From assembly GCF_021028975.2 (NCBI RefSeq), contig NC_059438.1:4960001-5024000 (forward strand): a stretch of DNA of 64,000 bases. The letters run 5' to 3'. Under the pieces are notes generated by a model. It was given only the letters and a program-made list of their open reading frames with translations, did not search any database and was not told the origin of the DNA. This document shows, in pieces, positions 21,659 through 37,745 of the stretch; positions within the stretch are counted from its first letter, which is position 1; each line of letters starts with the position of its first letter. Made by a program: the position numbers and the translations under genes. This DNA is from Sphaerodactylus townsendi. Lineage: Eukaryota.

Positions 21659-21692
21659 TCACATCACTGATGTAGAAGATTCTCTTGGGTAC
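21659..21692 (-). CDS. MAF: c-Maf long-isoform terminal coding exon (exon 2), encoding (M)YPRESSTSVM-stop
   Basis: The minus strand reads ...ttttactaaattag|G TAC CCA AGA GAA TCT TCT ACA TCA GTG ATG TGA. Joined to the exon-1 donor TTC AT|gtgagt (35631/35630) it gives EFFMYPRESSTSVM. This matches my recollection of the bird/rodent long c-Maf C-terminus (YPRESSTTVM-like). Phase is compatible; the intron is 21693-35630. Confidence 0.9.
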
Positions 21693-35626: not shown

Positions 35627-35632
35627 TCACAT
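35625..35632 (-). other. MAF: 5' splice donor AT|GTGAGT overlapping the short-isoform Met-stop (ATG TGA)
   Basis: Minus strand TTC ATG TGA GT; a consensus GTGAGT donor starts at 35630. Confidence 0.9.
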
Positions 35633-36092
35633 GAAAAACTCCGGCGAGGAGGGCTCGTCGCTGCTGGCGCCGTTTTCTCGGAAGCCGTTGCTGACCAGCT
35701 TCTCGTACTTCTCCTTGTAGGCGTCCCTCTCCCGGACCAGCCTGGAGATCTCCTGCTTGAGGTGCTCGACCTGCTGCAGCAGCTGGGTCTTCTCGGACTC
35801 GAGGACGTGCCGCTGCTGGACGCGCTTGAAGCGGCACGACTGGGCGTAGCCGCGGTTCTTGAGGGTGCGCCGCTTCTGCTTGAGCCGGATCACCTCCTCC
35901 TTGCTGACGCCGCGCAGCTGCCGGTTGAGCTCGCGCACCGACATGGTCACCAGCTGGTCGTCCGAGAAGCGGTCGTCGTAGGGCGAGCCGTGGTGCGGGT
36001 GCGAATGGTGCGCGTGCAGCCCGCCGCCGCCGCCGCCGCCGCCGCTGGAGCTGCCCCCGTTGCTGCTGCCGGCCGAGCTCTGCACGCTGCCC

Positions 36093-36128
<36 letters not shown>

Positions 36129-36727
36129 GGGTGGTGGTGCGGGTGGTGCGGGTGGAAGTGGGGCGCCCCTGCGCCGCCGCCGCTCTGCGCCGCCGCCGCC
36201 GCGATCACGGCCGACACCACGGCCGCCGCCGAGCCCATGTCGTCCGGGCCCATGGAGGCGGCCGGGCCGGCGCCCAGGGGCTGCCCGCGGGCATAGCCCT
36301 CGAAGCCGGTGCCCTGCAGCGGGTGGTGGTGGTGGCCGCTGCTGATGAGCGCCTCCACGGCGTCCTCGGGGCTGAAGGCGAGCGCCTCCGGGTTGAGCTG
36401 CTGCTGCGGCTGCGGGTAGCCGGTCATCCAGTAGTAGTCTTCCAAGGGGCCCTTCTGGTCGCCGCCCGAGCCCGGGCTGGGCGCCGAGAAGCTGGGCGAC
36501 GGCGGCACCGAGCTGCAGGGCGTGCTCATCGGCGTGGACGACAGCGAGCCGCCGGCGATGAGGCGGCCGCACTGGCTGATGAGGCGCTCGCTCTCGCCGG
36601 GCTCCTTTTTCACCTCGAACTTCATCAGATCGAAGTCATTAACATATTCCATGGCCAGCGGACTGGTGGGCAGGTCGCCCCCGCCGCCCAGCGCCAGATC
36701 CGACGCCGCCGCCGCCGCCGTCGCCAT
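35627..36727 (-). CDS. MAF: Transcription factor c-Maf (large Maf bZIP), intronless short isoform, 366 aa
   Basis: The protein has the large-Maf N-terminus [25 protein letters not shown] and the c-Maf-type segments [31 protein letters not shown] and [12 protein letters not shown]. It also has the extended homology region ([21 protein letters not shown]), basic region [17 protein letters not shown], a leucine zipper and the C-terminus SSPEFFM. The ATG is at 36727 (ggcaagaggATGg); the ORF-track start at 36955 is a TTG. Confidence 0.97.
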
Positions 36728-37560
36728 CCTCTTGCCCGGCCGCCAGAAAGGGCCCGGCGCGACGGGGCTGCTCTGGCCGGCCAGCGGGTGCGCCAGCTTG
36801 CCGGTGGGCGGCTGCTCTGCTCTCCGGCTGCTTCTCTCTTCTCCGCTCCTGCTGCTGCTGCTGCTGCCGCCGCTGCTGCCGCGGCTCTCCGGCTCGCTCC
36901 TCCAGCCCCTTTGCCGCCGCCGCCGCTCCAACGTGCGCCCCCCCCCCCTTTGCAAAAGAGCGGCTCGGGGGGCTCTTCGGTGCGCCGCGGGCTGCTGCTG
37001 CTGCTGCTGCTGCTCCGGGTCTATTTATTTGCCTTTCGCATCTGGGCTGGCTGGGGTTTTTTTTTCTCTCGCTCTTGCAATTCCCTCCCCTTTCTCTCTC
37101 TCCCTTTCTGCAGCTTGCAAAAAAAGCACACGCAACCCGCTGCAACTGGAAATGGGAGTTCGCTGCAGAAGAACGGTCCGAGAGATTTTTTTAGGGGGGG
37201 TGGGGGTCGCTCTCGTTTAACACTTCATGGCGCTCCTTTTGGGCTTTGGTTTTTGCTTTGCACGCCAAGTGCAAAGAGAGAGAGAGAGGTTCACCATCGG
37301 GGGGAGGGAGGACGAGGAGGAGGAGATAGATCCCCGGAGAATTGGAGATCAGCAATCTTTTTTTTTTTTTGGTTAAAGGAACAAAATGAAAAGATCTGCA
37401 AAAAAAAAAAGAAAAGAAAGAAAAAGGAATCCTCAGGTCAAGGCGATGACCCCAAACAGCGCCAGGTTTTTGTTGCTGGGGGAAGAGGAGGAGGAGAAAA
37501 AATCAGAGCGACTTAAAAGTCCCAACAAGCGCCGGCCGCGAGAAGTGTTTTAAAGCGCTC
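36728..37560 (-). other. MAF: MAF 5' UTR (~830 nt) with uORFs and CAG/GGC repeats
   Basis: Lies between the inferred TSS and the ATG. Upstream ATGs at 37297, 37228 and 37041; (CAG)7 at 36992-37012. Confidence 0.7.
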
Positions 37561-37589: not shown

Positions 37590-37745
37590 CCTTTTATAGC
37601 GCGCCTGACGTCAAGGGGGACAGGGACGCCCGGGCCCAGCCAATCGGCGCCCGCGAAGCCGGCCCTCATTAGCATAAAAATATAGTAACAAGGAAACTTT
37701 TCGAAGCTGTCAATCAGGGAGCCAATCAGCTGACTGTCAGCTGGG
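37590..37745 (-). promoter_or_regulatory. MAF: MAF core/proximal promoter
   Basis: TATAAAA at 37598->37592; perfect CRE TGACGTCA 37606-37613; CCAAT boxes 37640-37644 and 37722-37726; octamer-like ATGCTAAT 37675->37668; PBX-PREP/MEIS decamer TGATTGACAG 37716->37707; palindrome CAGCTGAC-T-GTCAGCTG 37727-37743. TSS inferred ~37560, about 30 nt downstream of the TATA. Confidence 0.85.

What the first reader, a model, noticed from the sequence alone, without database searches (positions are those of the whole stretch)
36728..36796. Candidate CUG-initiated N-terminal extension of c-Maf
Seen: the MAF reading frame is stop-free for ~99 codons upstream of the ATG (first in-frame stop TAA at 37027->37025). 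An in-frame CTG at 36796 has an optimal Kozak context (ggcAagCTGG: A at -3, G at +4). It would add 23 aa: (M)[22 protein letters not shown]. Recollection, not verified here: the human MAF leader has a similar GGCAAGCTGGCTCACCCGCTGGCC segment that also runs in frame to the ATG (LAHPLA.Q.SP.AP...P.WR..G.RM). Inference: conservation of both frame and peptide would point to an unannotated non-AUG c-Maf proteoform across amniotes.
Basis: partly seen in the sequence, partly recalled or inferred. Interest (0 to 1): 0.72.

Follow-up and report, generated by a model that had tools for sequence, protein, structure and literature searches.

The report
CUG-started long c-Maf, gecko to fish
This lizard c-Maf gene has an in-frame CUG codon 23 codons before its AUG that likely starts a minor, longer form of the transcription factor; the matching human form is already listed in two papers, and what this adds is that the extra peptide is recognisable in amphibians and bony fish.

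Summary
Observation confirmed: CTG at 36796 (minus strand, A-3, G+4) is in frame with the c-Maf ATG at 36727 and adds 23 residues. In this genome alone that is weak evidence: a 99-codon open frame arises in 37% of shuffles, such a CTG in 3.8%. Comparison makes it real. Of 25 c-Maf-type database proteins that run upstream of the Met, 22 carry a P-x-W-R motif, among them tamarin, frog-like, salamander-like and teleost sequences; likeness ends at a K-L-A that falls on the AAG-CTG-GC. A contig of another organism keeps the frame with a 6-base insertion, four synonymous changes and one replacement (read by hand). MafA/MafB paralogues lack it. It is not new as a phenomenon: human MAF is in the PhyloSET of Fedorova 2022, and a 2025 review lists a 32-residue CUG extension with ribosome footprints. 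No protein-level proof is in the papers I saw. New here: depth beyond mammals and amniotes, the conserved motif, and salmonid copies annotated with an AUG inside the extension. The scan's earlier notes hold no MAF case.

The parts
36728..36796 (-). 23-codon in-frame N-terminal extension of c-Maf, from CTG to the codon before the ATG
   Evidence: homologous peptide in other vertebrates
36792..36805 (-). CTG start codon (36796-36794) and its context: C-7, G-6, C-4, A-3, G+4, C+5; matches 5 of the 7 specified upstream positions of the published NAT1 motif
   Evidence: read against the motif definition in PMC13754004
36740..36751 (-). codons of the conserved P-F-W-R motif (P-x-W-R)
   Evidence: kept in frame in the contig
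35627..36727 (-). c-Maf coding sequence from the annotated-type ATG, 366 aa, Maf_N and bZIP_Maf domains, single-exon (short) C-terminus
37025..37027 (-). first in-frame stop (TAA) upstream of the ATG
36929..36931 (-). in-frame TTG with A-3/G+4, a second possible near-cognate start (68-aa extension) with no homology in other species
37021..37041 (-). 6-codon AUG uORF, out of frame, ending 225 bases before the CTG
37217..37297 (-). 26-codon AUG uORF with a nested 3-codon AUG uORF (37228) sharing its stop
37593..37613 (-). TATA box (37598) and CRE-type palindrome (37613); the leader would be about 840 bases, like the 812 bases of the human transcript
   Evidence: human length; the start of transcription is inferred, the element names are recalled

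Best explanation
The c-Maf leader holds an in-frame CUG in strong context 23 codons before the AUG, and a minority of scanning ribosomes likely start there, making a predicted 389-residue form beside the 366-residue AUG form, with the extra peptide likely under selection as protein. Shown: the codon, context, frame, the homologous peptide from mammals to teleosts, one coding-like DNA comparison. From papers: positive PhyloCSF and ribosome footprints for the human orthologue. Inferred: initiation at this CUG in the lizard; leaky scanning of most ribosomes on to the AUG; a ratio of the two forms that follows start-codon stringency (eIF1, 5MP); the P-x-W-R core acting as a short docking motif placed in front of the N-terminal activation region, so that long and short forms would share DNA binding and dimerisation but differ in a partner or in turnover.
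For: (1) 22 of 25 c-Maf-type proteins with more than 30 residues before the LAMEYV motif have P-x-W-R in the upstream peptide, 23 of 25 have W-R; 0 of 3 MafA-type proteins do (counted by eye; the 25 include 9 near-identical salmonid, 3 cyprinid and 2 other near-duplicate rows). (2) In 9 selected sequences the extension is 22-28 residues and pairwise identity falls to 0.06-0.31 at columns -14 to -2 before K-L-A. (3) The residue before the Leu is K or T (codons starting with A, giving A-3) and the next is A (giving G+4, C+5): what a start context predicts. (4) Contig of unnamed organism A aligns at 36759-36800 (42 bases, 5 differences, no gap), is unlike the window upstream of 36800, and its downstream loose end, read by hand, stays in frame with a 6-base insertion, synonymous changes in Ala, Pro, Gly and Arg codons, and one replacement (tables 7, 8). 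(5) Human MAF: PhyloCSF 9.269, Ribo-seq start predicted at AAG 99 bases before the AUG, which by arithmetic is the codon just before the CUG of the 32-aa extension; footprints judged convincing on manual review, start CUG. (6) All extension-bearing proteins lie outside the MafA/MafB clade (99/97); the genome's own paralogues have no upstream in-frame CTG with purine-3 and G+4.
Against: No translation data for this species. Human proteomics count for the extension is 0, the PhyloCSF score is low (set median 155.9), Ribo-seq rank 1683 is outside the top 500 and coverage is 43%; MAF does not occur in the supplement of a proteomics survey of translated 5' leaders. The protein set is biased: only leaders with an open frame can yield such database proteins, so frameshifted orthologues would be invisible, and only the best 120 of 595 and of 387 hits were listed. 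Columns -1 to +2 were used as the anchor, so their conservation there is by construction. The Leu codon was seen as DNA only in the window; Leu in a protein does not prove CUG; one sequence has Val (P0030) and also lacks the Trp. Three models (P0012, P0056, P0072) diverge before reaching K-L-A, probably through predicted splicing, not checked. K/R before the Met and K-L-A are explained by start contexts alone. No special hairpin follows the CUG (z +1.40). No bird, crocodilian, turtle or shark extension was seen.
Confidence: 0.8

Rival explanations
1. The CUG is used, but only the act of initiation matters (tuning c-Maf output to start-codon stringency or stress); the peptide is a tolerated, probably unstable tail.
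For: The best-kept columns at both ends are the two start contexts; length varies from 22 to 32 residues; the middle is variable; no peptide detected in human proteomics.
Against: P-x-W-R lies in mid-extension, away from both contexts, and is kept from mammals to teleosts; the Arg codon changes synonymously at its first base in organism A.
Confidence: 0.12
2. The stretch is a conserved RNA or DNA element (structure, protein-binding site) and the peptide likeness is a by-product; the CUG is not a real start.
For: Leaders of developmental regulators are often conserved as nucleic acid (own knowledge); some teleosts also share residues upstream of the Leu (N-K-E-I), which shows leader conservation that is not coding.
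Against: All length differences seen are whole codons; 4 synonymous against 1 replacement codon; folding is no better than shuffles; human footprints reported.
Confidence: 0.05
3. The AG before CTG is a splice acceptor, and the peptide is the start of a coding exon joined to an unknown upstream exon.
For: An ab initio tamarin model (P0005) switches to the homologous peptide exactly at the Leu.
Against: No pyrimidine tract precedes the AG in the window (purine-rich); the upstream parts of such models are unlike one another; the 2022 pipeline excluded extensions that overlap annotated coding exons.
Confidence: 0.02
4. Chance CTG in a GC-rich open leader.
For: Open frame in 37% and CTG with purine-3/G+4 in 10.5% of shuffles.
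Against: Cross-species peptide and boundary; published human signal.
Confidence: 0.01

Closest known systems
Human MAF CUG-initiated 32-aa N-terminal extension (PMC12045569, section 'Dataset assembly' and Table S1 row; PMC9789052, Supplementary PhyloSET rows)
   Same: Same gene, same start position (AAG then CUG), 14 of the first 21 residues identical by hand, same P-x-W-R, basic residues before the Met.
   Different: 23 rather than 32 residues, no Gly run; non-mammalian. The papers give a table row only: no experiment on MAF, no comparison outside mammals in the parts I read.
Conserved non-AUG N-terminal extensions as a class (PhyloSET of Fedorova 2022; the 59-gene set of Ivanov et al., seen only as cited there)
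   Same: In-frame near-cognate start in good context, coding-type conservation that stops at the start codon, AUG form retained.
   Different: Those sets were built from mammals; here the peptide is traced to teleosts by protein likeness.
Vangl2-Long, a near-cognate-started vertebrate extension (PMC11065751; search listing only) and CUG-started c-Myc, FGF2 (recalled)
   Same: Minor longer proteoform of a developmental regulator from an upstream near-cognate codon.
   Different: Those have protein-level and functional proof; c-Maf-long has none in what I found. No sequence relationship is claimed.

Membership tests
c-Maf (large Maf bZIP) orthologue | Maf_N and bZIP_Maf domains | tested here: met
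   PF08383 E 1.4e-16, PF03131 E 1.3e-33
c-Maf (large Maf bZIP) orthologue | groups with c-Maf, not MafA/MafB | tested here: met
   sister to gecko Maf proteins (94/94, 92/90); MafA-type rows and both own paralogues form a separate clade, 99/97 (bootstrap not fully settled)
Conserved non-AUG N-terminal extension | near-cognate codon in frame with the AUG, no stop or AUG between | tested here: met
Conserved non-AUG N-terminal extension | strong context (purine -3, G +4) | tested here: met
   A-3, G+4, C+5
Conserved non-AUG N-terminal extension | peptide conserved, conservation ends at the start codon | tested here: met
   anchor columns circular, W-R motif and spacing are not
Conserved non-AUG N-terminal extension | start codon itself conserved as DNA | tested here: inconclusive
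   Leu in 8 of 9 anchored proteins, Val in 1; the contig covers the codon but its 5 differences are not placed; human CUG from a paper
Conserved non-AUG N-terminal extension | coding-type substitutions, indels in multiples of three | tested here: met
   one pairwise comparison over about 10 codons by hand; human PhyloCSF positive but low; thin sample
Conserved non-AUG N-terminal extension | ribosome footprints or initiation peak | not testable with these tools
   reported for human only
Conserved non-AUG N-terminal extension | longer protein detected | not testable with these tools
   human proteomics count 0; not in the supplement searched
NAT1-motif non-AUG start | GCCGCC-R-NN upstream motif, exact or one base off | tested here: not met
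   two mismatches (-9, -5), though C-7 and G-6 are kept; MAF does not occur in that paper's text or the 2 supplements searched

The most novel reading that the evidence does not exclude
A CUG-started long c-Maf is ancestral to bony vertebrates and carries a c-Maf-specific P-x-W-R docking motif that gives it partners or a half-life the AUG form lacks; one salmonid duplicate has put an AUG in front of the motif and so makes the motif-bearing form constitutively. The human 5' leader stretch would then be coding sequence for variant reading in MAF disease.
Probability: 0.4. Interest if true: 0.62.

Novelty: new member of a known kind. Interest (0 to 1): 0.36.

Why it matters
c-Maf is a much-studied regulator of lens, immune-cell and sensory development and a myeloma oncogene (own knowledge), and cDNA constructs that begin at the AUG would miss the long form. 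The human extension has so far been a weakly scored table row; conservation of start, frame and a Trp-Arg motif out to fish moves it from likely noise to a proteoform worth one direct experiment, and names the residues to mutate.

Tried and rejected
Metagenome contig scan for orthologous DNA: 617 pattern matches, none confirmed. Sequencing runs: no RNA holder listed. Profile search of 50%-identity representatives: 19 hits, only 2 with the extension, both already known; the 7 multi-stretch hits that match only the middle of the profile were set aside as compositional (3 looked at). The long open frame as evidence: rejected (paralogues). A downstream hairpin as enhancer: no support. The TTG at 36931 as the conserved start: rejected, no homology upstream of K-L-A. 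MYND and 14-3-3 motifs listed for the human peptide: P-x-L-x-P is absent from the lizard peptide, so not adopted. Whether the v-maf fusion includes the leader: one search, listing only, nothing usable. Literature searches for a paper devoted to the extension or to its conservation outside mammals found only the two papers cited; the library lacks most subscription journals, and Supplementary Data 2 of PMC9789052 was too large to read, files 4 and 13 were not searched. No structure or complex prediction was run: the peptide is short and no partner is known. Earlier scan notes: fungal CUG cases and an unrelated bacterial one, no MAF.

Full report
Observation. On the minus strand the c-Maf ATG is at 36727, an in-frame CTG with A-3 and G+4 is at 36796, and the first in-frame stop is the TAA at 37027-37025; the frame is open for 99 codons and the 23 codons from the CTG read [23 protein letters not shown]. 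The gene is c-Maf: Maf_N and bZIP_Maf domains, closest hits named Maf from geckos, the best one identical over the annotated N-terminus, and a tree that puts it with gecko Maf and away from the MafA-type proteins and the two paralogues of its own genome.

Chance. In 5000 dinucleotide shuffles of the last 300 leader bases, 37.0% stay open for 99 codons, 3.8% hold an in-frame open CTG with A-3/G+4, 10.5% with purine-3/G+4. The paralogues L002 (MafA clade) and L003 (MAFB, label recalled) have 43 and 154 open codons before their ATG, and no upstream in-frame near-cognate codon with both purine-3 and G+4. So the open frame carries no weight and the case rests on comparison. In the window's open frame only two near-cognate codons have both context bases: the CTG and a TTG at 36931.

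Protein-level comparison. Some database gene models start too far upstream and so expose the leader as protein. Among 233 stored proteins with the large-Maf motif LA[MI]EYV, 30 have more than 30 residues before it: 2 are the window's own, 3 are MafA-type, 25 are c-Maf-type. By eye, 22 of the 25 have P-x-W-R shortly before the Met, 23 have W-R; the exceptions are P0030 (Trp replaced), P0056 (no Pro) and P0072 (no Arg). None of the 3 MafA-type proteins has it. The 25 are not independent: 9 are salmonid, 3 cyprinid, 2 another teleost pair. They include a tamarin (P0005), named teleosts (Bagarius, Mugilogobius, Danionella, Puntigrus, Xenoophorus), an unnamed protein that is sister to Xenopus Maf (P0007, 96/92) and one that clusters with salamander Maf (P0006). 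I anchored 9 of the 30 (the window and 8 non-redundant sequences that reach past the Leu) on [KT][LV]A[HQL]; the other 21 were left out as duplicates (4), Met-started inside the extension (10), starting at the Leu (1), diverging earlier (3) or MafA-type (3). In the 9 the extension is 22-28 residues; identity upstream of the anchor is 0.06-0.31 per column, and P, W, R of the motif are at 1.0, 0.78, 1.0 when anchored on the motif. Both anchors are circular for their own columns; what is not circular is that both motifs occur together, in this order and at this spacing from the Met. The residues at the anchor are those that a start context demands: K or T gives A-3, A gives G+4 and C+5. Bias: leaders with a broken frame cannot appear in such a set, and only 120 of 595 and 120 of 387 hits were listed.

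DNA-level comparison. One contig from another, unnamed organism (run X1) aligns at 36759-36800 with 5 differences in 42 bases and no gap, and is unlike the window from 36801 upstream, so likeness begins 4 bases before the CTG. Its downstream loose end, read by hand in the same frame, has synonymous changes in the Ala, Pro, Gly and Arg codons, a 6-base insertion that restores two residues the lizard lacks relative to mammals and fish, an unchanged P-F-W, and one replacement. That is a coding signature, from a single pair and about 10 codons. The 5 differences in the aligned part are not placed, so the CTG itself is not shown there. The other 3 runs gave nothing usable.

What is in print. Fedorova et al. 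2022 (PMC9789052; I saw passages, section 11, and supplement rows) list human MAF in PhyloSET: 53-codon open region, PhyloCSF 9.269 (set median 155.9), Ribo-seq start AAG at 714 with the AUG at 813, rank 1683, coverage 43%, proteomics count 0; the single 'maf' in the main text is a file format, and MAF is not among the 30 genes reannotated. A 2025 review (PMC12045569; section 12 and the Table S1 row) re-inspected footprints by hand and gives MAF a CUG start and a 32-residue extension, with an inconclusive dimer prediction. 99 bases is 33 codons, so the 2022 AAG is the codon just before that CUG, as in the window. MAF does not occur in the one supplement of PMC11317171 nor in text or 2 supplements of PMC13754004. 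PMC6886504 mentions only the MAF variant tag. Seven searches gave no paper devoted to this extension or to its presence outside mammals; subscription journals are mostly not covered.

Mechanism. The inferred leader of about 840 bases has three upstream AUGs in short uORFs. Ribosomes that pass or reinitiate after them meet the CUG in a context with C-7, G-6, C-4, A-3, G+4, C+5, two bases off the NAT1 enhancer motif. A minority would start there and the rest scan on 69 bases to the AUG, which is itself in strong context; no special hairpin follows the CUG (z +1.40). The result would be a 389- and a 366-residue protein with the same bZIP, able to dimerise with each other. eIF1 and 5MP suppress near-cognate starts (PMC13754004, passages), so the ratio would follow stringency. 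The function of the peptide is inferred only: the ends are explained by start contexts, but P-x-W-R in the middle is not, and a conserved Trp-Arg in a short low-complexity tail most likely is a binding motif. Nine salmonid proteins (Salmo, Oncorhynchus, Salvelinus, Coregonus; 7 of the 15 listed members of one cluster and 3 of 4 of another begin so, two of these counted in both my lists) are annotated with a Met inside the extension, ahead of the motif; if that AUG is used, one duplicate makes the motif-bearing form by default. P0006 also begins with Met 26 residues upstream; whether this is the CUG position or two codons further in cannot be told without DNA.

Verdict. A real, conserved, very likely CUG-started extension of c-Maf. 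The human orthologue is already listed, so this is a new member of a known kind; the added value is depth of conservation and a named motif. Protein-level proof and function are open. Interest 0.36.

Noticed in passing
window 21659-21692, minus strand: Alternative last coding exon of c-Maf (Y-P-R-E-S-S-T-S-V-M-stop) about 14 kb downstream, behind an AG acceptor; matches the C-terminus of database isoform X2. The exon for isoform X1 was not found in the window.
   Followed up: partly
window 36903-36905, minus strand: Out-of-frame CTG with G-3/G+4 opening an 88-codon frame that overlaps the extension and the start of the CDS; it could divert ribosomes before the in-frame CUG.
   Followed up: no
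window 37021-37297, minus strand: Three upstream AUGs in short uORFs (26, 3 and 6 codons); conservation not tested.
   Followed up: no
window 36088-36126 and 36700-36724, minus strand: This c-Maf has a Gln run in the His/Gly-rich region and an Ala run just after the Met, longer than in most orthologues listed; CAG runs also lie in the leader.
   Followed up: no
proteins P0017, P0018, P0212, P0213, P0216, P0217, P0222, P0225, P0227: Salmonid Maf copies annotated with an AUG-started 23-residue extension that keeps the P-x-W-R motif, while other copies in the same cluster start at the usual Met.
   Followed up: partly
L003 (own genome), upstream of its ATG: The MAFB-like paralogue has a 154-codon open frame before its ATG, with no well-placed near-cognate start; probably a GC effect.
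   Followed up: partly
proteins P0010, P0011, P0016, P0210, P0211: Goby and cyprinid leaders share N-K-E-I just before the Leu, so teleost leader conservation extends a few codons upstream of the presumed start.
   Followed up: no
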